Shown: positions 5,741 through 14,756, counted from the stretch's first letter. The stretch is 14,756 nt of DNA from an uncultured Candidatus Poseidoniales archaeon (GCA_964645485.1 CAZXZO010000015.1:29210-43965); one strand, 5' to 3'. The notes: generated by a model not told the origin, from the sequence alone. Numbers and translations: made by a program.

Positions 5741-7162
5741 ATGACAGGTCGCGACGGCTCAGGATGGCAGCCTACTGCATATCGTACTCACACCTTAGGT
5801 GAAATCGCTGGTAACGGAGCGGATTTGGTAGATAGTGACGTCACTGTTGCGGGTTATGCAGAAGCAGTTCGCGGCCGCGGTGCCATTTGTTTTCTGATGT
5901 TGAGAGACGGCACCGGTCACCTGCAAGCATTCCTCAAAAAGGACAACATGGATGAGGATACTTTCACAGAGATTCAATCAGCCAATCGTGAAAGTGTCAT
6001 TCAAGTTACTGGAACGGTCGCTCAGAAGCGACCTCCGAAAGTAAAGGAAGGAGAGCCTACACCTCCGCCAGAATACGAAATCCAGGTCAGCAGTGCAGCA
6101 ATTCTGGCTGTCGCAGAAGCACCAATGCCAATGGGTGTTACCGACAAAGTTCACGTTGAACTACCAACACGATTGGATAACCGCCACATAGATTTGCGCC
6201 GAAGTCACATCAACGCAATGTTCCAATTACGTTCAAAAGTTCTCCAATATGGCCGCGAGCACCTAATCACTGAAGGGTTCAATGAGATGAACTCGCCAAA
6301 AATAATTGCCAGCGCATCCGAAGGAGGAACCAATCTTTTCCCTATGAAATATTTTGAGACTGATGCATATCTCAGTCAAAGTCCACAGTTATACAAGCAA
6401 CTAGCAATCCTTGGTGGATTAGAACGCGTTTTTGAGGTGGGACCTGCATTTAGAGCAGAGGAGCACGATACATATCGCCATCTAAACGAATTTATTTCCT
6501 TTGATATTGAGATGGCTTTCGCTAACGATGATGACGTGATGGCGGTACAAGAAAGAATGATTCAGCACATCTGGAAGAGTGTTGCAGAGAATGACCAAAA
6601 TCTGATTGACATGATCAATGAATGGAGAGCAGAGCAAGAACCTCCCCTATCTCCTGTGACTGTTGAAGTACCGACCCTCCCATTCCCCCGTGTAGAATAT
6701 AGTGAAGCGATTGAGATTATCCAAAATGCTGGCGTAGCGATTGAATGGGGTGACGATATTGAGGCGCAACATGCTGATATGATAGCAGCAAAATACCCCG
6801 GATTTTACTTCTTACCAAGGTGGCCAATGGCGATGAAACCATTCTACATTTACCACAATGCTGACGAAAAGGGACCTAACGGTGGCCAACTTAGCCGCGG
6901 TTTTGACTTGAATTATGGGCGTGATGAAATGACTAGTGGTGGCCAGCGTGAACATCGAGTTGACGTCTTAGTTGAGAACCTTGAAAATATGGGATTAAAT
7001 CCCGCAGATTTCACTTTTTACACCGATGGATTCCGCTTTGGAGCGCCACCTCACGCAGGTTGGGGACTAGGAGTTGCTAGACTGCTGATGGTGTTGACAG
7101 GAGCGGGCAATGTGAGAGAAGTAGTCCTCTTCCCAAGAGATCGAAGCCGAGTCACTCCCTGA
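5741..7162 (+). CDS. aspS: Aspartyl-tRNA synthetase, archaeal/eukaryal type (discriminating status not determinable by eye)
   Basis: N-terminal OB anticodon domain (VTVAG...FLMLRDGTG), RLDNRHIDLR, SQSPQLYKQ, motif 2 FRAEEHDTYRHLNEF, SGGQR, motif 3 PPHAGWGLGVARL, C-terminal LFPRD. No GAD insertion, so archaeal size. ATG 5741 preferred to TTG 5693 (473 aa). Confidence 0.96.
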   Translation: MTGRDGSGWQPTAYRTHTLGEIAGNGADLVDSDVTVAGYAEAVRGRGAICFLMLRDGTGHLQAFLKKDNMDEDTFTEIQSANRESVIQVTGTVAQKRPPKVKEGEPTPPPEYEIQVSSAAILAVAEAPMPMGVTDKVHVELPTRLDNRHIDLRRSHINAMFQLRSKVLQYGREHLITEGFNEMNSPKIIASASEGGTNLFPMKYFETDAYLSQSPQLYKQLAILGGLERVFEVGPAFRAEEHDTYRHLNEFISFDIEMAFANDDDVMAVQERMIQHIWKSVAENDQNLIDMINEWRAEQEPPLSPVTVEVPTLPFPRVEYSEAIEIIQNAGVAIEWGDDIEAQHADMIAAKYPGFYFLPRWPMAMKPFYIYHNADEKGPNGGQLSRGFDLNYGRDEMTSGGQREHRVDVLVENLENMGLNPADFTFYTDGFRFGAPPHAGWGLGVARLLMVLTGAGNVREVVLFPRDRSRVTP

Positions 7163-7184
7163 ATAATTACAGGACGGTGGCCGA

Positions 7185-7412
7185 TTGACTCCAGAGAATT
7201 CGAAAAAGGTCTGGGCTTACATTCAAGAAGCGGGAGAAAAACTAGTTGGAAAACTACCACCATCTCACCGTCACCCAAGTGGCAGAAATCCGTATGCCCA
7301 TGTTGCAATCTGTGTGAGGTCTAAGTTTGGTCAGTCTTACAAAGACCTGCCTGATGAACAAATTGACGACGTGATTGAGTACATCGATTACCTCGTTGAG
7401 AACCCTTCCTAA
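7185..7412 (+). CDS. Small hypothetical protein (75 aa)
   Basis: TTG start with SD-like AGGACGGTGG at 7171-7180. Fills the gap between aspS and the next gene on the same strand. Protein-like amphipathic helices and motif HPSGRNPYAHVA...KFGQSYKDLPD. Confidence 0.75.
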   Translation: MTPENSKKVWAYIQEAGEKLVGKLPPSHRHPSGRNPYAHVAICVRSKFGQSYKDLPDEQIDDVIEYIDYLVENPS

Positions 7413-7473
7413 TTACAAAATTCTTGGAACCGAAAATAACGGGTATCTACAGCCCCTCCGCTAATTGATAGTC

Positions 7474-8220
7474 ATGCCCGAGGGGAACAAGCCGACTTTT
7501 GCCTTTTTACTTCTAAAGGAGCATCCATATGGTCGTGAAATGCTCTACCAAATCCTTTCGGAAGGATTTGTTCCAACAATAGTCATCAGTGAAGATTCTG
7601 ATATCGCTGATGAAGAAAGAGAGAAATTCCTTGACCGAATTTCTGGTAACCCAATTGCCCCAACAATTGAGTCTCAACTAAGTGAATTACAATCTGATGG
7701 CATTGAAGTCCCCCATATCTGCGTTCCAATTCACAATTCTGAAAATGTTATGCCTCACATTTCTGATATGGATTTAGATCTAATTGTCTTTGGAGGAACT
7801 AGAATTATCCGTGGAGAAATCCTCGAACATCCCTGTGATGGGGTAATCAATTCACACCCTGGTCTCTTGCCTCACTGTCGTGGCTCTGCAAGCCCTGCAT
7901 GGTCGGTTTATCATGACATACCGATTGGCTCTTCAACTCACTTCTGTGATAATGGGATAGACACTGGAGAACTGCTACTAACCCGTGAATTACCGGTGGT
8001 CAAAGGGATGACTTACGAAGACCTGTGCTACCATACATTGGTGCTCGCAGGGGTTTTAATGAAAGAGGCTTTATTGGCTTATGAGGCTGGAAAATGGAGT
8101 GAAATTCGTCACCCGCAAGGTGAAAGCGAGCACCCTACCTTCCGTAACGCGCCAGAAGAGGTGTTGCAGGTGGTTCGTCAAAAATTGGCAGACTTAACAT
8201 ACGCCCACTATGTAGACTAA
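7474..8220 (+). CDS. Formyltransferase-family protein (Formyl_trans_N; Fmt-like, no C-terminal tRNA-binding domain)
   Basis: INSHPGLLPHCRGSASPAWSV...GSSTHFCDNGIDTG retains the Asn-x-His...Asp catalytic set (7849-7857, 7960-7962) and the Fmt-like 'LP.yRG..P..W' motif; only about 248 aa. Alternative TTG start at 7465. Confidence 0.85.
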   Translation: MPEGNKPTFAFLLLKEHPYGREMLYQILSEGFVPTIVISEDSDIADEEREKFLDRISGNPIAPTIESQLSELQSDGIEVPHICVPIHNSENVMPHISDMDLDLIVFGGTRIIRGEILEHPCDGVINSHPGLLPHCRGSASPAWSVYHDIPIGSSTHFCDNGIDTGELLLTRELPVVKGMTYEDLCYHTLVLAGVLMKEALLAYEAGKWSEIRHPQGESEHPTFRNAPEEVLQVVRQKLADLTYAHYVD

Positions 8221-8233
8221 AGGAGATGAAAAA

Positions 8234-9040
8234 ATGGAGAATATATCACCACTTGCGAATGATGCATTAGAAGGACGCCATGCAATTGTTTGTGGAGCAT
8301 CGGCTGGAATCGGCCGCTCAACAGCCATGACATTAGCCGCGGCCGGAGCCGAATTAACACTGGTTTCTCGGTCGGCAGACAAGTTGACTTCTCTTGCAAA
8401 TGAATGCCATAATGCTGGCTCCCCCAGAGTCCATGTGTTGCCGATAGATTTGGAAGATGGGCGGGCGATTGATGCTTTGATTCCAGCCCATCTGAAAAAA
8501 TTTGGAACTGCTCACATTCTCATCAATAATGCCGCCGGACCTCCGTCCGGCCCACTCTTGAATGCATCAGATGATGATTTTCTCAAACCGCTCAAGCGCC
8601 ACCTATTCGCTGCTCAGCGAATGGTCAAACATTGTTTACCTGGCATGGAGGAGAAACAACATGGCAGAATTGTGAACATCATCTCAACCTCAGTTCGTGA
8701 GCCTATTGCCAATCTTGGGGTTTCCAATACCGTGAGAGGAGCAATGGCGGGCTGGTCAAAAACACTAGCCACCGAACTTCCTTCTTGTGTTAGCATCAAC
8801 AATATCTTACCGGGCTTCACAAATACCGGTAGACTTGATTCACTCGCCCAACAAATCTCTGAGACAAAAGGGATTACTCCGGACGATGTTCGCTCTACAT
8901 GGCTTTCAGGAGTGCCCGCCGACCGCTTGATTGAGCCTGAAGAAACCGCGGCGGCGATTGCATTCCTTTGTTCTGATGCGGGTGGTGCAATCCGCGGTGT
9001 TTCACTCGCTGTTGATGGCGGCAGAATGCGCTCAATTTAA
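8234..9040 (+). CDS. SDR-family oxidoreductase, atypical FabG-like subgroup with SxxxR in place of YxxxK
   Basis: Rossmann motif CGASAGIG, NNAAG, GRIVNIISTSV, LGVSNTVR, NNILPG.T, VDGG. SD GGAG upstream, 13 nt after the previous stop. Confidence 0.9.
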   Translation: MENISPLANDALEGRHAIVCGASAGIGRSTAMTLAAAGAELTLVSRSADKLTSLANECHNAGSPRVHVLPIDLEDGRAIDALIPAHLKKFGTAHILINNAAGPPSGPLLNASDDDFLKPLKRHLFAAQRMVKHCLPGMEEKQHGRIVNIISTSVREPIANLGVSNTVRGAMAGWSKTLATELPSCVSINNILPGFTNTGRLDSLAQQISETKGITPDDVRSTWLSGVPADRLIEPEETAAAIAFLCSDAGGAIRGVSLAVDGGRMRSI

Positions 9041-9049
9041 GGTGAAAAT

Positions 9050-10288
9050 ATGCAGTTTGATGTTTTCTTTTCGATATCGCAGACGCCAGACTCTACTGGT
9101 TACTGCCCCGATGAGCAAACAATGTATTCCAACTACATTGAACAGTTGAAACTCGCAGATAATCTAGGATATGGAGTTGCTTGGATTGCTCAGGCCCACC
9201 TCTCCACCGAAGTTCAGAAACGTAACCGTAATCCAGTAATTCCTCATTGGGAAGGAGAGGTTGGTTTGTGTACTGATTTTTTCCAATTAGCAGCGCTTTC
9301 ATTTGCTGAAACTGAACACATTGAAGTGGGCTCGGCCGTACTTTCAATTCTAGCTAATGGTGGCCCAATCGCAGTTGCTGAAAGAGTAGGGAATTTTTGT
9401 GCGCTACAAGAATTAAGAGGTGACTCAAGGAAATTACACATCGGATATTCTGCTGGAAGATTCCAATTTATGGCCTCGCCTTACGGTGTAATCCCGCGTG
9501 ATGCAGTCGAGGAAAAAGCATGGCCTGCTTTACGCGGTCAAATCTTTTGGGAAGCCAGCGAAATATTCCTACGCTTGCTAAACGGTGAAGCATTCTCATC
9601 AGATTCGGTACGAAAAACAACTCTTACAATAGACAACTTCCGTAGTGATGAAGATTGGCAAGCAGTACAAGAAGCGGCAATTGATGTCAGAGGTTTGGCT
9701 GAGCCGCCTCAAGAAATTGAAATTCCTCGGCACTATCAATTTGAGGAAATAAAAAGTATCCCACAGGATTGGAATCGAGACCTTCTCTCACTAACGCTTG
9801 GAAGTCACGAACCGGCTTTACAAATTGAGGCTAACAAGTATCGCCCAGTACAGGTTTTCAATCTGTCAATTACTGCTCCTGAACTCATAGAAGCAACTCA
9901 TGAAAGAATGACTGAATCCTACCACCAAAGTGGAGGAGAATGGCAGCGAAATATGATGCCAAGAACTGTCATGGTATTCTTGAATAATGAAGAAGGGCTC
10001 ACTCGTGAAGAGCAATCAGCCGCAGCAAACAAAGAGGCAAAAGCCACACTAGATTCATACTGGAATGCGCTTGAAGGGACTATTGACCCTGCAAAAGTTT
10101 CCAAAGCGGCAAATAACGCTGTTATCGGAAACGCCAAGGAAGTTGCCGCCCAAATTGTTGAAAGATTCCACCCTGACGACCGACTAATGCTATGGTTCGA
10201 CTTCTTCCGCCATGACTCCTCTCGCGTTCAGCGTGATATGGCTGCATTCATCAATGAAGTCGCACCCTTAGTAAATGGAGATGAGTGA
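9050..10288 (+). CDS. Luciferase-like (LLM class) flavin-dependent oxidoreductase/monooxygenase
   Basis: MQFDVFF start, EQLKLADNLGYGVAWIAQAH, TEHIEVGSAV, AERV..F..L, G RLHIG-like segment (KLHIGYSAG), and C-terminal VIGNAKEVAAQI...DRLMLWF match the LLM TIM-barrel pattern. Archaeal SD GGTGA at 9041-9045. Confidence 0.85.
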   Translation: MQFDVFFSISQTPDSTGYCPDEQTMYSNYIEQLKLADNLGYGVAWIAQAHLSTEVQKRNRNPVIPHWEGEVGLCTDFFQLAALSFAETEHIEVGSAVLSILANGGPIAVAERVGNFCALQELRGDSRKLHIGYSAGRFQFMASPYGVIPRDAVEEKAWPALRGQIFWEASEIFLRLLNGEAFSSDSVRKTTLTIDNFRSDEDWQAVQEAAIDVRGLAEPPQEIEIPRHYQFEEIKSIPQDWNRDLLSLTLGSHEPALQIEANKYRPVQVFNLSITAPELIEATHERMTESYHQSGGEWQRNMMPRTVMVFLNNEEGLTREEQSAAANKEAKATLDSYWNALEGTIDPAKVSKAANNAVIGNAKEVAAQIVERFHPDDRLMLWFDFFRHDSSRVQRDMAAFINEVAPLVNGDE

Positions 10289-11456
10289 CTTGACCGAACA
10301 CAACCCATCATCTGTTTCTCCTGGCAGGCCCGGTTCTGGTGTTTATCCAACTAATCCTCTTGGTGAAATTCACGACGGTATACCAACGGGACGTGATGTG
10401 GAGTGGGAGCCACTAGTTGATTTCCGACGCAACGATGTTTCTGAAAATACAATACACGGGGCTGTTGCTTGGGCTCATGGAAACGAAGTAATCCACTCTT
10501 TTGGAGGCAATGTTCTTTGTTACGGACGCTCAATGATGAAACCCCTGATGATGAAAACATTCGTTGATGTGCTAGATGGTGAACTCACTAGCAAGCAAAA
10601 AGCAATCTCCTGTTCATCTCATAACGGTGATACCGAGCACGTTGCTGCTGCACAATCGATTCTCAATGAATCAGAATGGGGATTGATGCAGTGTCCATTA
10701 GATGTGCCTTTGATTCAATTCGGACGTCAAGTCCGTCGTCCACGGCGCTGGTTCCATACTTGTTCGGGCGAACACGCTGCTATCCTCAAAGCACTTCGCT
10801 TGAAAGGAATTAATCGGGCTGGTTACACTCTACCACAATCTGAATGGTTTCCTCTTTTCATTGATGTTCTGAGAGATTTACTTGGGCAACCGGATTGGAA
10901 TCCTCTGCGAGTGGCAAAAGATGGATGCGGATTACCAACGGTTTCCAATACTGTCAACGAATTATCGGTAATGTTTGCTGGCTTAGCGGCCACAAAAGAT
11001 GACGATTGGATATGGGAATCAATGTGTAACCATCCAGACCTTGTGGGCGGGTTCAATCGCCTTGACTCAACGATTCTAAAATGTGGGGAAGGGAAAGTAC
11101 TGGCAAAGGAAGGGGCTGACGGACTGTTAGGTCTTTCAGTGATCCATCCAGATTATCCCAAAGGCTTGGGAATTACAATAAAAATCGCGCACGGTTGGAA
11201 CGCACAAGCAACTTGGTATGTTGCCCGGGCTGTTCTTGGTGTACTAGGAATTGAGTTGAGAAACCCATATCCTTTACATCGGCAAAAAGCGTTTATCGTA
11301 CCCGGTGTTGTACCTCCAAACCTGCTCAAAAACCTCGAAACAGTGGTTACGTGGGATGAGTGGGACCCGAACAGTGACCGATGGTTCTACGACTGGCGAC
11401 AATACTCTGCAGGGTCAAATCATGAAGGGCAGACAGAGGAACAGAATCCAAACTGA
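10281..11456 (+). CDS. Class 3 (Rhizobium etli AnsA / asparaginase II-type) amidohydrolase homologue
   Basis: Ordered motifs RSMMKP (RSxxKP), SSHNG (SHxG), TCSGEH (NCSGKH), DGCGLP and AKEGADG. ATG 10281 overlaps the LLM stop as ATGAGTGA; ATG 10275 is an in-frame alternative. Confidence 0.85.
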   Translation: MSDLTEHNPSSVSPGRPGSGVYPTNPLGEIHDGIPTGRDVEWEPLVDFRRNDVSENTIHGAVAWAHGNEVIHSFGGNVLCYGRSMMKPLMMKTFVDVLDGELTSKQKAISCSSHNGDTEHVAAAQSILNESEWGLMQCPLDVPLIQFGRQVRRPRRWFHTCSGEHAAILKALRLKGINRAGYTLPQSEWFPLFIDVLRDLLGQPDWNPLRVAKDGCGLPTVSNTVNELSVMFAGLAATKDDDWIWESMCNHPDLVGGFNRLDSTILKCGEGKVLAKEGADGLLGLSVIHPDYPKGLGITIKIAHGWNAQATWYVARAVLGVLGIELRNPYPLHRQKAFIVPGVVPPNLLKNLETVVTWDEWDPNSDRWFYDWRQYSAGSNHEGQTEEQNPN

Positions 11457-11465
11457 GGTTGAACA

Positions 11466-12974
11466 ATGGATGAAGAGTGCTGTGATTCTGGATGCAAACC
11501 CTGTGTTTTGGACCCGGAAGATGGTGATATCCCTGACTTACTGAACTACATCTCAGGTGAGTTTCTCCCGGCTCAGTGTGAAGAATGGCTGAATGACCTC
11601 TCTCCAGCGACAGGTATGAGAATTGCTAGAGTCCCAAAATCAAATGCTGATGATATTAATTCGGCTGTAACCTCTGCCCGTGATGCCTTACCTGAATGGT
11701 CATCTCTAAGCCACGCTCAAAGAGCAGATTGGCTGGACAAAATTGCTGATGCCTTGGAAGAGAGATGTGAAGAAGTAGCACAACTTGAATCACTTGACAC
11801 TGGAAAACCAATTTCTTTGGCACGCAATGTTGACGCCACTCGTTCAGTTGCCAACTTCCGTTTCTTTGCTGACGAAGTGAGAAATTTCACTGCTGAAACT
11901 TTTGATATGGAAAATGCCACCAACCATGTTGTCTACAAGCCGGTTGGTGTTGCAGGTTTGATTACTCCTTGGAATCTCCCGCTCTATCTGTTGAGTTGGA
12001 AGGTTGCGCCAGCATTAGCAATGGGTAATACAGTTGTAGCCAAGCCATCTGAAATGACACCAATGACAGCAAGTTTGCTAGCCGAAATCATTGATGATGT
12101 CGGACTTCCCAAAGGTGTCTTTAATCTCGTTCATGGACATGGTGAAGAAACCGGAGCAGCCCTTACTAGCCACTCAGGTGTTGACCTCATATCCTTCACA
12201 GGTGGGACTGCTACGGGAGCCAAAGTCGCAACTGCAGCAGCATCTACTTTCAAGAAATTAAGTCTTGAATTAGGTGGCAAAAATGCCACAATTGTATGTG
12301 CTGATGCTGATATGGAAAAAACCGTTGCAGGAGTCGTAAGAGCCGGATTTCTAAATCAAGGACAGGTCTGCCTTTGTGGCTCAAGAATCCTAATTGAAGA
12401 GAGCATTTACGATGAATTTGTCAGCCAATTCCTCACTGCTGTAGAAGCGATGAAAATTGGCGACCCAGCAGACCCCGAAACAGACCTTGGCGCTCTCATT
12501 TCGGCAGACCATCTCAACAAAGTCAGTGGTTACATTTCCCTAGCCCAAGAAGAAGGCGGTGTCATCCTCTCGGGGGGAACAACACCTGCAGGAATCCCAG
12601 GCCAATTTGAGAATGGCAACTGGCTCTCTCCAACCGTAATAGATGGCCTATCACCAAACAGTAGATGTGCTACTGAGGAAATTTTCGGGCCGGTCGTAAG
12701 CCTACACGCGTTCAGTAATGAAAATGAAGCCATTGAAATCGCAAACTCAACCCAATATGGCCTAGCAGGTAGTGTGTGGACTTCTGATCTAGAAAAAGGT
12801 AGGAGAATCGCTGAGAAAATAGATACCGGAATGGTTTGGGTGAACACCTGGCTTCACCGTGACTTGCGCACCCCATTTGGAGGGGTTAAACACTCAGGTG
12901 TTGGTAGAGAAGGAGGGCGTTGGAGCCTGTCTTTTTACTCACATGCAGTTAACATTTGTTTACACCATGACTGA
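11466..12974 (+). CDS. Aldehyde dehydrogenase, ALDH8 / 2-aminomuconate (2-hydroxymuconate) 6-semialdehyde dehydrogenase-like, with a Cys-rich N-terminal extension
   Basis: ITPWNLPLYLLSWKVAPALAMGN, KPSE, FTGGT, LELGGKN, NQGQVCLCGSR (catalytic Cys), EEIFGPV, and subfamily-typical VWVNTWLHRDLRTPFGGVKHSGVGREGG. SD-like GAGG/GGTTGA upstream. Confidence 0.9.
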   Translation: MDEECCDSGCKPCVLDPEDGDIPDLLNYISGEFLPAQCEEWLNDLSPATGMRIARVPKSNADDINSAVTSARDALPEWSSLSHAQRADWLDKIADALEERCEEVAQLESLDTGKPISLARNVDATRSVANFRFFADEVRNFTAETFDMENATNHVVYKPVGVAGLITPWNLPLYLLSWKVAPALAMGNTVVAKPSEMTPMTASLLAEIIDDVGLPKGVFNLVHGHGEETGAALTSHSGVDLISFTGGTATGAKVATAAASTFKKLSLELGGKNATIVCADADMEKTVAGVVRAGFLNQGQVCLCGSRILIEESIYDEFVSQFLTAVEAMKIGDPADPETDLGALISADHLNKVSGYISLAQEEGGVILSGGTTPAGIPGQFENGNWLSPTVIDGLSPNSRCATEEIFGPVVSLHAFSNENEAIEIANSTQYGLAGSVWTSDLEKGRRIAEKIDTGMVWVNTWLHRDLRTPFGGVKHSGVGREGGRWSLSFYSHAVNICLHHD

Positions 12975-13082: not shown

Positions 13083-14756
13083 ATGACCATCACTGCTGCA
13101 CGAGAAGTCATCGACTTTGTTTATCGCAGAGTCGATGAGGTCAGTGAAACTCTAGAAAGAAAACTCGGTATGGCATCTGTTGTCATCATTTCACTTTCAG
13201 CAATGCTGGGCTCGGGCCTGTTTGTTTTACCTGCTCTAGCAATGTTAGACATGGGAGGAGGCACAACCCCTGTCGGCGGCATTTGGTTGGCTTACTTGGT
13301 GGCAGCGCTTATTGTACTGCCTGGAGCCATTTCCAAAGCAGAGTTAGCGACTGCAATGCCATCATCTGGCGGTTCTTATGTCTATATAGAACGTACATTT
13401 GGACCTTTGATTGGTACAATCTCAGGATTAGGCCTATGGGCAAACTTCATGCTCAAATCTGCATTTGCACTCATAGGATTCAAAGCCTACCTTTGGGTGT
13501 TGGAAAGTCTACTTAATATCACGATAAATATCGAATATGCTGCACTGATTTTGTTATTTTTAATTGTAATCATTAACATCTTGGGACTTAAGAGAATTAA
13601 GAAAGTACAAACGCCAATCGTTCTTACTTCAGTACTATTCCTATTCATAATTTGCATATGGGCAATTTTGACCATGGATTTAGATTGGAATGTGGTATTT
13701 TCAAAAGAGGCATATGGGGCAGGATGGAAGTCAGTTGCTCACACCTCTGCCTTTGTTTTCGTAGCCTATGCTGGTGTTACAAAAATTGCAGCAGTGGGTG
13801 GGGAAATAAAAGACCCAGGTCGGAACATTCCCTATGGCATTCTTATTTCTCTGCTCGTCAGTTGTGTGCTATATGTATCCATCTCTATTGTTATGGTAGC
13901 CGCAGTAGGGCCTATGGGGTACATGAATAATGGTGCGGCAAGAGAGGACCCCATCTATGTTTTTGCAAACGCTGTTGGTGGTGAAACTATTGGCATAATA
14001 GCTTCAATTCTAGCTGTAACCACCATGACTTCAATGGCTCTTGCTGGCATAATGGCTTCTTCTCGATTTCCATTTGCCATGGCGAGAGACAATTTGTTAC
14101 CAGAGGCTTTGGAAAATGTTCATCCAAAATATGAGACACCACACCTTGCAATCATAGGAACTGGAATCGCAATGGCTGTAGCAATCACCCTACTTCCTGT
14201 TGGAGATATTGCAAAACTGGCATCTGGTTTCAAAATAATGATTTTCATAGTTATTAACGGCTGTGTGATGGTCCTAAGGAGAGCATCAAAAACTCATTCA
14301 TGGTATGATCCAGAATGGAAATCACCTCTATATCCTATTTTCCAAATTATTGGAATCGTTGGAGGTATTGTGCTCATATATATGATGGGTGAAAAGGCCT
14401 TAATTGGTGCAGCAGCCTGTTGTTTATTTGGATTGATTACCTACTATTCCTATGGCAAGTCAAGAGCCCACCCAATGCTGACCCCATGGAGAACTGTAAG
14501 AACTGAATTTACAAATTCAGAACAGTATGAGCGAGAGAAGAGTTGGTTGGTATTCCATGCATCCTGTAGCAAGGCACAACCAGACCACCTCACACTCCAT
14601 GAGTTCATTCACGCAATGGAAGTCCTATCCCCTAAAATGGAGCATTTCCACCTAAGAAATCTATTTCATGAGATTGATGAAAATGGTGATGGAGTCATTG
14701 ATGTTAATGAATTCTTAGAATCATTTGACGCTGGAAAGATGCAAAGCGAAGAATAA
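13083..14756 (+). CDS. APC-superfamily amino acid permease with C-terminal EF-hand domain (complete; stop TAA at the window end)
   Basis: TM1 SAMLGSGLF, AELATAMPSSGGSYVYIERTFG, TM6 FVFVAYAG...GGEIKDPGRNIP, SSRFPFAMARDNLLP, HPKYETPH, PLYP; about 12 hydrophobic segments. Canonical EF loop DENGDGVIDVNE at 14676-14711. Confidence 0.93.
   Translation: MTITAAREVIDFVYRRVDEVSETLERKLGMASVVIISLSAMLGSGLFVLPALAMLDMGGGTTPVGGIWLAYLVAALIVLPGAISKAELATAMPSSGGSYVYIERTFGPLIGTISGLGLWANFMLKSAFALIGFKAYLWVLESLLNITINIEYAALILLFLIVIINILGLKRIKKVQTPIVLTSVLFLFIICIWAILTMDLDWNVVFSKEAYGAGWKSVAHTSAFVFVAYAGVTKIAAVGGEIKDPGRNIPYGILISLLVSCVLYVSISIVMVAAVGPMGYMNNGAAREDPIYVFANAVGGETIGIIASILAVTTMTSMALAGIMASSRFPFAMARDNLLPEALENVHPKYETPHLAIIGTGIAMAVAITLLPVGDIAKLASGFKIMIFIVINGCVMVLRRASKTHSWYDPEWKSPLYPIFQIIGIVGGIVLIYMMGEKALIGAAACCLFGLITYYSYGKSRAHPMLTPWRTVRTEFTNSEQYEREKSWLVFHASCSKAQPDHLTLHEFIHAMEVLSPKMEHFHLRNLFHEIDENGDGVIDVNEFLESFDAGKMQSEE

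What the first reader, a model, noticed from the sequence alone, without database searches (positions are those of the whole stretch)
10527..10931. Class 3 asparaginase homologue with substituted zinc ligand (NCSGKH changed to TCSGEH)
Seen: RSMMK (10527-10541), TCSGEH (10758-10775) and DGCG (10920-10931). Knowledge: in R. etli ReAV the Ser48-x-x-Lys51 pair is catalytic and Zn is bound by Cys135, Lys138 and Cys189, within NCSGKH and DGCG. Here the nucleophile pair and both Cys are kept, but Asn134 maps to Thr and the Lys138 ligand maps to Glu, reversing charge at the metal/substrate site. Inference: an active hydrolase with a different amide substrate, not an L-asparaginase. A formamidase or deaminase role would fit the operon.
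Basis: partly seen in the sequence, partly recalled or inferred. Interest (0 to 1): 0.7.

Follow-up and report, generated by a model that had tools for sequence, protein, structure and literature searches.

The report
Asparaginase-like hydrolase in archaeal tryptophan breakdown
This gene is a real relative of the rhizobial (class 3) asparaginases with one zinc-binding lysine changed to glutamate, but its fixed place in a tryptophan-degradation gene cluster suggests it releases aspartate and 2-aminophenol from an oxidised kynurenine, and the lysine-to-glutamate change is probably not what set that job.

Summary
ORF 10275-11456 (+) is a PF06089 protein with RSMMK, TCSGEH and DGCG at the stated coordinates. 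ReAV Lys138 aligns to Glu166, and every other ReAV catalytic or substrate-anchoring residue is kept.

The Glu form is not scattered. All 121 close homologues have it, as do 157 genome loci from Poseidoniales, other Thermoplasmatota and several bacterial phyla. It nearly always comes with loss of Gln54 (here Met92).

The gene sits next to a divergent luciferase-like monooxygenase (LLM) in 153 of 157 loci. The wider cluster holds tryptophan 2,3-dioxygenase, a formamidase, an SDR, 2-aminomuconate-semialdehyde dehydrogenase, 2-aminophenol 1,6-dioxygenase (AmnBA) and a RidA deaminase. Of 57 canonical NCSGKH loci, none has LLM, AmnBA or TDO nearby.

Lys/Gln-type orthologues in Bdellovibrionota sit in the same cluster, so Lys-to-Glu is not the specificity switch. 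In ReAV the zinc holds the substrate's alpha-amino-acid end, so the acyl group is probably still beta-aspartyl.

Best reading: the LLM oxidises kynurenine Baeyer-Villiger-style, and this enzyme hydrolyses the product to L-aspartate plus 2-aminophenol. Formamidase and deaminase roles are taken by other genes. This scan reached the same pathway idea before on other DNA. I found no paper describing it.

The parts
10275..11456 (+). Class 3 asparaginase-fold gene (P0001, 393 aa). Residues 1-44 and about 360-393 are low-confidence extensions; the core is residues 45-345.
   Evidence: PF06089 at 146 bits. ReAIV and ReAV are the best PDB sequence hits. AF2 model has pLDDT 88.3 and pTM 0.85. Foldseek top hits are ReAV/ReAIV, E about 1e-19, TM 0.72-0.78.
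10527..10541 (+). R85-S86-M-M-K89. Corresponds to ReAV Arg47 (alpha-carboxylate anchor), Ser48 (nucleophile) and Lys51 (base).
   Evidence: Residue roles are from PMC12292245 and PMC12951835.
10548..10550 (+). M92, the position of ReAV Gln54, which is the partner of Lys138.
   Evidence: Alignment. All 34 Lys138-type sequences have Gln here; 48 of 50 sequences without Lys do not.
10617..10619 (+). S115, the position of ReAV Ser80 (second Ser-Lys tandem).
10758..10775 (+). T162-C163-S-G-E166-H167. The metal-ligand motif with Lys138 replaced by Glu and Asn134 replaced by Thr.
10920..10931 (+). D216-G-C218-G. Corresponds to ReAV Asp187 and the metal ligand Cys189.
11106..11120 (+). K278-E-G-A281-D282. 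Corresponds to ReAV Lys263, Ala266 (oxyanion hole) and Asp267.
   Evidence: PMC12951835.
9050..10288 (+). Divergent luciferase-like monooxygenase (LLM). It is the obligate neighbour and overlaps the start of the asparaginase-like gene.
   Evidence: PF00296 at 36 bits. No PDB sequence hit. AF2 pLDDT 84, and Foldseek hits are LLM-fold flavin or F420 enzymes. Adjacent in 153 of 157 Glu-type loci and 7 of 7 Lys-type loci.
11466..12974 (+). 2-aminomuconate-6-semialdehyde dehydrogenase-type ALDH.
   Evidence: PDB 4u3w at E 8.9e-149 and 4i1w at 2.7e-143. Pfam and NCBIfam hits.
8234..9040 (+). SDR of the cluster, with SxxxR where the catalytic YxxxK normally sits.
7465..8220 (+). Formyltransferase-fold protein (N-terminal domain only). 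It fills the cluster's formamidase slot in MGIIb.
   Evidence: PF00551 at 45 bits. Mutually exclusive with the alpha/beta hydrolase and the cyclase across loci.
13083..14756 (+). APC-family amino-acid permease with a C-terminal EF-hand. Candidate uptake component; it runs off the window.
   Evidence: It follows the cluster in many MGII loci.

Best explanation
The gene encodes an active serine hydrolase of the class 3 asparaginase fold. Together with the LLM encoded just upstream, it forms a two-enzyme module of a kynureninase-free tryptophan catabolic pathway.

Proposed route:
1. Tryptophan 2,3-dioxygenase plus a formamidase make kynurenine. In this lineage the formamidase is probably the formyltransferase-fold protein.
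2. The LLM inserts oxygen between the aromatic ring and the ketone of kynurenine (Baeyer-Villiger). The product is the 2-aminophenyl beta-ester of aspartate. It could rearrange by O-to-N acyl shift to N4-(2-hydroxyphenyl)-asparagine.
3. This enzyme hydrolyses that beta-aspartyl compound, as an asparaginase hydrolyses asparagine. It holds the alpha-amino-acid end on its metal and Arg85 and attacks with Ser86. The products are L-aspartate and 2-aminophenol.
4. AmnBA, the ALDH and RidA then degrade 2-aminophenol.

Glu166 replaces Lys as the third metal ligand, giving a Cys2-Glu site. This is a variation within the pathway enzyme, coupled to loss of Gln54. It is not the change that created the new specificity.

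Shown here: homology, the conserved catalytic set, the clade, the gene neighbourhood and the identity of the downstream enzymes.
Inferred: the Baeyer-Villiger step, the substrate, and metal binding by Glu.
For: - Family, fold and the catalytic and anchor residues are all present except Lys138 and Gln54.
- FT-SDR-LLM-ASNase3-ALDH is syntenic in all 80 Thalassarchaeaceae loci.
- In Poseidoniaceae, other Thermoplasmatota and bacteria the same core is joined to TDO, two LigB genes, RidA and a cyclase.
- The window's own genome has TDO on contig C1. It has AmnB (8ihg_A, 9e-104), AmnA (3vsg_A, 7e-43) and RidA on contig C55.
- The ALDH is a 2-aminomuconate-semialdehyde dehydrogenase type.
- No kynureninase above cut-off and no 3-HAO were found in the 82%-complete genome.
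- None of 57 canonical NCSGKH loci has LLM, LigB or TDO nearby.
- LLM-ASNase3 also occurs as a minimal pair, once with a KynB-type cyclase.
- The formamidase slot is filled by three unrelated proteins, mutually exclusively. The deaminase slot is filled by RidA.
- In ReAV the metal and Arg47 bind the alpha-amino and alpha-carboxylate groups of the substrate (PMC12951835, PMC12292245), and these residues are conserved here.
- The gene is single-copy in 60 of 61 Poseidoniales genomes.
Against: - There is no biochemical evidence for any step.
- The LLM is very divergent. Foldseek places it only in the general LLM fold, and type II Baeyer-Villiger enzymes rank about 40th.
- The SDR has no assigned role.
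- I could not read model coordinates, so neither metal binding by Glu166 nor a pocket for an aryl leaving group was checked.
- TDO and AmnBA lie on other contigs in this genome.
- Earlier reports of this scan reached the same idea, but they are not independent evidence.
Confidence: 0.55

Rival explanations
1. It is a dedicated hydrolase of the tryptophan/2-aminophenol cluster but acts on a different intermediate from the one proposed. Examples are another LLM product, a lactam or amide formed from kynurenine, or the N-formyl form of the ester. The LLM chemistry would then not be a Baeyer-Villiger insertion on free kynurenine.
For: The same neighbourhood evidence as the main explanation applies. 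The LLM chemistry is unresolved. The Tyr-less SDR has no role in the main scheme.
Against: The alpha-amino-acid anchor (Arg85, Cys163, Cys218, Asp216) is conserved, which points to a beta-aspartyl-type acyl group. The downstream enzymes need a 2-aminophenol, and few other routes from kynurenine give one without kynureninase.
Confidence: 0.25
2. It is an ordinary L-asparaginase whose Lys-to-Glu change merely retunes zinc binding. Its position in the operon would have no functional meaning.
For: The full catalytic set is conserved. ReAV K138A still has about 1% of kcat and a normal KM (PMC11024299). It is the only PF06089 gene in the genome.
Against: Adjacency to the LLM holds in 153 of 157 loci across two domains, against none of 57 canonical members. 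The start overlaps the LLM stop. There are 16 clade-specific conserved differences from canonical enzymes.
Confidence: 0.08
3. It is the N-formylkynurenine formamidase, or a 2-aminomuconate deaminase, of the pathway.
For: It is an amidohydrolase in a kynurenine-type cluster. Some loci show no recognised formamidase within the flank examined: 4 archaeal and 18 bacterial.
Against: Bacterial clusters carry a KynB-type cyclase as well as this gene. MGIIa loci carry an alpha/beta hydrolase, and MGIIb an FT-like protein, in the same slot. These are never combined. RidA/AmnD-type deaminases are present. The conserved amino-acid anchor would have no use for a formamide.
Confidence: 0.07

Closest known systems
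[quoted passage not shown]
   Same: - Same Pfam family and fold: Foldseek E about 1e-19, TM 0.72-0.78.
- Both Ser-Lys tandems are kept (Ser48/Lys51 and Ser80/Lys263).
- Arg47, Cys135, His139, Tyr156, Asp187, Cys189, Ala266 and Asp267 are all conserved.
   Different: - Only 21-26% identity.
- The metal ligand Lys138 is Glu, Gln54 is Met and Asn134 is Thr.
- There are N- and C-terminal extensions.
- It is always encoded next to an LLM inside a tryptophan/2-aminophenol cluster, which canonical members are not.
- The predicted leaving group is an aminophenol rather than ammonia.
2-Aminophenol meta-cleavage pathway (AmnBA/CnbCaCb dioxygenase, AmnC dehydrogenase, AmnD deaminase) of nitrobenzene and aminophenol degraders
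   Same: The genome and the related clusters encode close homologues of AmnB (9e-104), AmnA, the 2-aminomuconate-semialdehyde dehydrogenase (9e-149) and a RidA-type deaminase.
   Different: Here the module is joined to tryptophan 2,3-dioxygenase, a formamidase, an LLM and this hydrolase. This suggests that 2-aminophenol comes from tryptophan, not from xenobiotics.
Canonical kynurenine pathway (TDO, KynB, KMO, kynureninase, 3-HAO, ACMSD, AMSDH)
   Same: The entry steps (TDO, formamidase) and the exit step (AMSDH) are the same.
   Different: No kynureninase above cut-off and no 3-HAO were found in this genome. LLM plus the asparaginase-like hydrolase plus AmnBA would replace KMO, kynureninase, 3-HAO and ACMSD. 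The amino-acid product would be aspartate rather than alanine.
Aryl-ketone catabolism by a Baeyer-Villiger monooxygenase plus an esterase, for example 4-hydroxyacetophenone monooxygenase with 4-hydroxyphenyl acetate esterase in Pseudomonas fluorescens ACB (from my own knowledge, not tested here)
   Same: The logic is the same: aryl ketone to aryl ester to phenol plus acid, followed by ring cleavage.
   Different: The oxygenase here would be of the LLM type, not an FAD/NADPH type I enzyme. The hydrolase is an asparaginase/beta-lactamase-fold enzyme, not an alpha/beta esterase.

Membership tests
Class 3 L-asparaginase (PF06089; ReAV/ReAIV) | Sequence match to PF06089 above the gathering score | tested here: met
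   146.3 bits against a cut-off of 25, E 1.4e-42.
Class 3 L-asparaginase (PF06089; ReAV/ReAIV) | ReAV-type two-domain fold | tested here: met
   AF2 pLDDT 88.3. The Foldseek top 38 hits are all ReAV or ReAIV, E about 1e-19 and TM 0.68-0.78. The next tier (beta-lactamases, glutaminases) has E above 1e-3.
Class 3 L-asparaginase (PF06089; ReAV/ReAIV) | [quoted passage not shown] | tested here: met
   S86/K89, S115/K278, R85, H167, Y184 and D216.
Class 3 L-asparaginase (PF06089; ReAV/ReAIV) | Zn site of Cys135, Lys138 and Cys189 | tested here: not met
   C163 and C218 are kept, but Lys138 is Glu166. Whether Glu binds the metal was not testable.
Class 3 L-asparaginase (PF06089; ReAV/ReAIV) | L-asparagine hydrolysis as the physiological activity | not testable with these tools
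   Needs an enzyme assay. The genomic context argues against it.
LLM-linked PF06089 clade of the tryptophan/2-aminophenol cluster (defined here; noted by earlier reports of this scan) | Placement in the supported clade that is separate from canonical NCSGKH enzymes | tested here: met
   The window protein lies in a 41-representative clade with 99% SH-aLRT support on a quick tree.
LLM-linked PF06089 clade of the tryptophan/2-aminophenol cluster (defined here; noted by earlier reports of this scan) | The divergent LLM lies immediately upstream and the AMSDH-type ALDH immediately downstream | tested here: met
   Window genes 9050-10288 and 11466-12974. The same order holds in all 80 Thalassarchaeaceae loci.
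LLM-linked PF06089 clade of the tryptophan/2-aminophenol cluster (defined here; noted by earlier reports of this scan) | TDO, AmnBA and RidA present in the same genome | tested here: met
   TDO is on C1. AmnB, AmnA and RidA are on C55. They are on other contigs, not in the window.
Kynurenine formamidase | KynB cyclase fold (PF04199) or alpha/beta-hydrolase arylformamidase fold | tested here: not met
   The protein has the PF06089 fold. Separate cyclase, alpha/beta-hydrolase or FT-like genes fill that slot.

The most novel reading that the evidence does not exclude
A class 3 asparaginase-fold enzyme with a Cys2-Glu metal site is a beta-aspartyl aryl-ester or N4-aryl-asparagine hydrolase. Paired with a divergent LLM acting as a kynurenine Baeyer-Villiger oxygenase, it splits kynurenine into L-aspartate and 2-aminophenol. 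This would define a kynureninase-free tryptophan catabolic route that is a core trait of Marine Group II archaea and is also present in several bacterial phyla.
Probability: 0.5. Interest if true: 0.85.

Novelty: new variant of a known kind. Interest (0 to 1): 0.68.

Why it matters
Class 3 asparaginases are studied almost only as L-asparaginases, mainly as antileukaemic candidates. Their metal site is described as nearly invariant.

This work shows a large natural clade in which the Lys ligand is Glu. That clade, together with some Lys-type relatives, is tied to a tryptophan/2-aminophenol gene cluster rather than to asparagine metabolism.

If the proposed chemistry holds, three things follow:
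- A new enzyme activity is added to the fold.
- The 2-aminophenol ring-cleavage genes known from pollutant degraders gain a natural source for their substrate.
- An amino-acid catabolic route becomes known in Poseidoniales, among the most abundant planktonic archaea; the gene was found in 60 of 61 genomes searched.

It also warns against annotating these genes as "asparaginase".

Tried and rejected
The contexts of the metagenome-only representatives (P0122, P0125, P0128-P0130 and others) could not be seen. I used genome-contig loci instead.
- **RNA evidence.** No RNA holder was listed for the operon.
- **Canonical-family scan.** A 6-sequence one worked.
- **Literature.** Searches for a kynurenine Baeyer-Villiger route, 2-aminophenol from tryptophan, or an LLM in kynurenine metabolism found nothing relevant.
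- **Glu-to-Lys reversal in Bdellovibrionota.** The free tree nests the Lys pair inside the Glu clade. An AU test does not reject all Glu rows forming one clade (p 0.82). I therefore dropped this claim.
- **Lys138/Gln54 coupling.** It is striking in counts but rests on too few independent events for a test: 2 starred pairs.
- **LLM.** There was no PDB sequence hit. The fold search gives only the general LLM fold.
- **Model coordinates** are not readable in the script box. I did no metal-site geometry, pocket analysis or docking.
- **Genome G005** lacks both LLM and this gene but keeps TDO and AmnBA. With one genome, an assembly gap cannot be told from co-loss.

Full report
**Observation**

The window comes from a Thalassarchaeaceae (Marine Group II b, Poseidoniales) genome bin, judged from the closest loci. 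ORF 10275-11456 (+) encodes a 393-aa protein, P0001.
- RSMMK at 10527-10541
- TCSGEH at 10758-10775
- DGCG at 10920-10931

The protein matches Pfam PF06089 (Asparaginase_II) at 146 bits, E 1.4e-42. No NCBIfam model matches it. Its best solved relatives are the Rhizobium etli enzymes ReAIV (8cly, 7.7e-15) and ReAV (7os3, 8.7e-13). The alignments have no gaps around the motifs.

By those alignments the residues correspond as follows:

| P0001 | ReAV |
|---|---|
| R85, S86, K89 | Arg47, Ser48, Lys51 |
| S115 | Ser80 |
| C163, E166, H167 | Cys135, Lys138, His139 |
| Y184 | Tyr156 |
| D216, C218 | Asp187, Cys189 |
| K278, A281, D282 | Lys263, Ala266, Asp267 |

An AlphaFold2 model built on a 54-sequence alignment is confident (pLDDT 88.3, pTM 0.85). 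Its Foldseek hits are ReAV and ReAIV (E about 1e-19, TM 0.68-0.78). Beta-lactamases and glutaminases follow only at E above 1e-3.

**How the Glu variant is distributed**

- All 121 close homologues from a 5.8-billion-protein search carry TCSGEH.
- Among cluster representatives at 50% identity, the closest full-length relatives are a mix of Glu, Lys, Asn, Gln and His at this position. More distant ones are uniformly N/PCSGKH.
- In an 84-sequence alignment, all 34 Lys-type sequences have Gln at the Gln54 position. Of the 50 sequences without Lys, 48 do not. The ReAV papers describe Gln54 as a hydrogen-bond partner of Lys138 (PMC11024299, PMC12292245), so the pair looks coupled. Too few independent changes exist to test this: only 2 pairs on supported branches.
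- A small sister group has lost both cysteines (NSSG[N/H]H with DGD).

**Neighbourhood**

The block formyltransferase-like, SDR, LLM, asparaginase-like, ALDH is syntenic in all 80 Thalassarchaeaceae loci fetched.

A second scan used non-MGIIb Glu variants as the query. It retrieved Poseidoniaceae, other Thermoplasmatota and bacteria: Planctomycetota, Acidobacteriota, Alphaproteobacteria, Bdellovibrionota, Myxococcota and others. There the same LLM, hydrolase, ALDH core is flanked by:
- tryptophan 2,3-dioxygenase (PF03301)
- two LigB-family genes
- a RidA/L-PSP gene
- a PF04199 cyclase, the kynurenine-formamidase family

The window's own genome has these genes on other contigs:
- TDO on contig C1
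- two LigB genes plus RidA on the 2.7-kb contig C55

The two LigB proteins are close to the solved beta and alpha subunits of 2-aminophenol 1,6-dioxygenase (8ihg_A at 9e-104, 3vsg_A at 7e-43). The window's ALDH is closest to 2-aminomuconate-6-semialdehyde dehydrogenases (4u3w, 8.9e-149).

No cyclase, no kynureninase above cut-off and no 3-hydroxyanthranilate dioxygenase were found. The genome is only 82% complete.

**Controls**

I counted loci with at least 2.5 kb on both sides of the gene:

| Group | n | LLM | ALDH | LigB | TDO |
|---|---|---|---|---|---|
| Glu-type | 157 | 153 | 152 | 107 | 25 |
| Lys/Gln-type of the near clade | 7 | 7 | 6 | 6 | 0 |
| Canonical NCSGKH scan | 57 | 0 | 5 | 0 | 0 |

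The neighbourhood link is therefore real and specific. It belongs to the clade, not to the Glu residue. Bdellovibrionales and Oligoflexus orthologues with PCSGKH/SCSGKH and Gln54 sit in the same SDR-LLM-hydrolase-ALDH-AmnBA-RidA cluster.

In a tree rooted on canonical enzymes, the window protein lies in a 99%-supported clade of 41 representatives, 39 with Glu and 2 with Lys. More basal Lys/Gln lineages already have the LLM immediately upstream:
- Alteromonas sp. a30, a cultured strain
- a Zetaproteobacterium, which also has a cyclase

Whether the Bdellovibrionota Lys form is a reversal or a sister lineage is open. An AU test does not reject all Glu rows forming one clade (p 0.82).

The gene is found as a single copy in 60 of 61 Poseidoniales genomes searched.

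**What the enzyme most likely does**

The literature on ReAV establishes several points:
- Ser48 is the nucleophile.
- The oxyanion hole is formed by the NH groups of Ser48 and Ala266.
- Arg47 binds the substrate's alpha-carboxylate.
- The zinc is not catalytic. It anchors L-Asn through its alpha-amino and alpha-carboxylate groups (PMC12951835, PMC12292245).
- K138A keeps about 1% of kcat with an unchanged KM (PMC11024299).

All of these elements are conserved here except the Lys ligand. The enzyme therefore probably still binds an L-alpha-amino acid with a beta-carbonyl, which means a beta-aspartyl compound.

The cluster supplies kynurenine at one end (TDO plus a formamidase). It consumes a 2-aminophenol at the other (AmnBA, then AMSDH, then RidA). 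It has no kynureninase, KMO, 3-HAO or ACMSD.

The simplest chemistry to connect the two ends has two steps:
1. A Baeyer-Villiger insertion by the LLM into the aryl ketone of kynurenine, or of N-formylkynurenine. This gives the 2-aminophenyl beta-ester of aspartate, which could rearrange to N4-(2-hydroxyphenyl)-asparagine.
2. Hydrolysis by this enzyme to L-aspartate plus 2-aminophenol.

This is inference. I wrote it down before seeing that earlier reports of this scan had reached the same idea on other genomes. Those reports are not independent evidence.

The LLM is confirmed only as an LLM-fold protein. It has no PDB sequence hit, and by fold it is nearest to assorted flavin and F420 enzymes. 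Type II Baeyer-Villiger enzymes rank about 40th.

**The Glu ligand**

Carboxylates are common zinc ligands and lysine is a rare one, so a Cys2-Glu site should still bind metal. This is my own knowledge, not tested here.

A Glu ligand does not need deprotonation. It may suit neutral pH better than the Lys of ReAV, which works best near pH 9 (PMC12292245). That is speculation.

Lys-type and Glu-type proteins share the same cluster. I therefore read the swap as tuning of the amino-acid anchor within one function.

Candidate specificity positions separate the LLM-linked clade from canonical enzymes. They include I60 (canonical His), W66 (Val), G78 (Asp), P141 (Gly), H161 (Asn) and H306 (Asp). I could not map them on a structure.

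**Why not a formamidase or deaminase**

Among archaeal loci with long flanks, the slot upstream of the SDR or at the cluster end holds one of the following:

| Slot occupant | Archaeal loci |
|---|---|
| Formyltransferase-fold protein | 32 |
| Alpha/beta hydrolase | 27 |
| Cyclase | 2 |
| None found | 4 |

No locus has two of them. Bacterial loci have the cyclase (17) or none within the flank (18).

This pattern of non-homologous replacement fits a formamidase role for those proteins. It makes a second formamidase unnecessary. RidA-type proteins, sometimes fused to AmnA as at L095:13562-15010, cover the deaminase step.

**Novelty**

The ReAV literature reports Lys138 as 97% conserved among bacterial orthologues. 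It treats the metal sphere as essentially invariant (PMC11024299, PMC9500103). I found no discussion of a Glu clade or of any link to tryptophan catabolism.

Six searches found no paper on a kynurenine-to-2-aminophenol route. The library does not cover most subscription journals.

The scan itself has reported the pathway hypothesis several times on other DNA. This report adds four things:
- the analysis of the metal-ligand variant and its coupling to Gln54
- the demonstration that Lys-type orthologues share the cluster
- the canonical-family control
- the argument from the ReAV substrate complexes that the acyl group remains beta-aspartyl

**Verdict**

The gene is best described as a new functional variant of the class 3 asparaginase fold. 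It is very probably (about 0.85) a dedicated hydrolase of a tryptophan/2-aminophenol catabolic cluster. With moderate confidence (about 0.55) it is the enzyme that releases L-aspartate and 2-aminophenol.

Noticed in passing
window 7465-8220 (+); L095:2985-3788; L148:12718-13338: Three unrelated proteins occupy the cluster's presumed N-formylkynurenine formamidase slot: a formyltransferase-fold protein, an alpha/beta hydrolase and a PF04199 cyclase. In 61 archaeal loci with long flanks that have one (32, 27 and 2), none has two. The FT-like protein may be a new kind of deformylase.
   Followed up: partly
window 8234-9040 (+), residues S164 and R168: The cluster's SDR has SxxxR where classical SDRs have the catalytic YxxxK. 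This is conserved in archaeal and bacterial orthologues (4 aligned). Its role is unknown. It might be a flavin reductase for the LLM.
   Followed up: partly
proteins P0126, P0149, P0155 (metagenome representatives): A sister group of PF06089 proteins has lost both metal cysteines (NSSG[N/H]H and DGD) while keeping both Ser-Lys tandems. This implies a different metal site or none.
   Followed up: no
L180 (Alteromonas sp. a30, 6437-8936) and L168 (Zetaproteobacteria, 6524-9401): A minimal LLM plus Lys/Gln-type asparaginase-like pair occurs without AmnBA or the ALDH nearby. In L168 it is followed by a cyclase. Alteromonas sp. a30 is a cultured strain and so offers an experimental handle.
   Followed up: partly
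G000 contig C55 (L164: 16-573, 645-1604, 1565-2509, all minus strand): The genome's AmnB, AmnA and RidA genes lie on a 2.7-kb contig. In the closest relatives (L003, L006) these three genes follow a few kb downstream of the ALDH. C55 therefore probably belongs just beyond the window.
   Followed up: partly
L095:13562-15010 (+): In Poseidoniaceae the AmnA-like LigB subunit is fused to the RidA domain (482 aa, PF02900 plus PF01042).
   Followed up: no
window 11466-11513 (+): The ALDH begins with a Cys-rich stretch (CCDSGCKPC) ahead of the usual ALDH start.
   Followed up: no
window 13083-14756 (+): An APC-family amino-acid permease has a C-terminal EF-hand (PF00036, E 3.9e-6). It follows the cluster here and in many MGII loci and may import the substrate.
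   Followed up: no
genome G005 (same family as the window's genome): This is the only one of 61 Poseidoniales genomes without a PF06089 hit. It also lacks the LLM but keeps TDO and AmnBA. This could be co-loss or a single assembly gap.
   Followed up: partly
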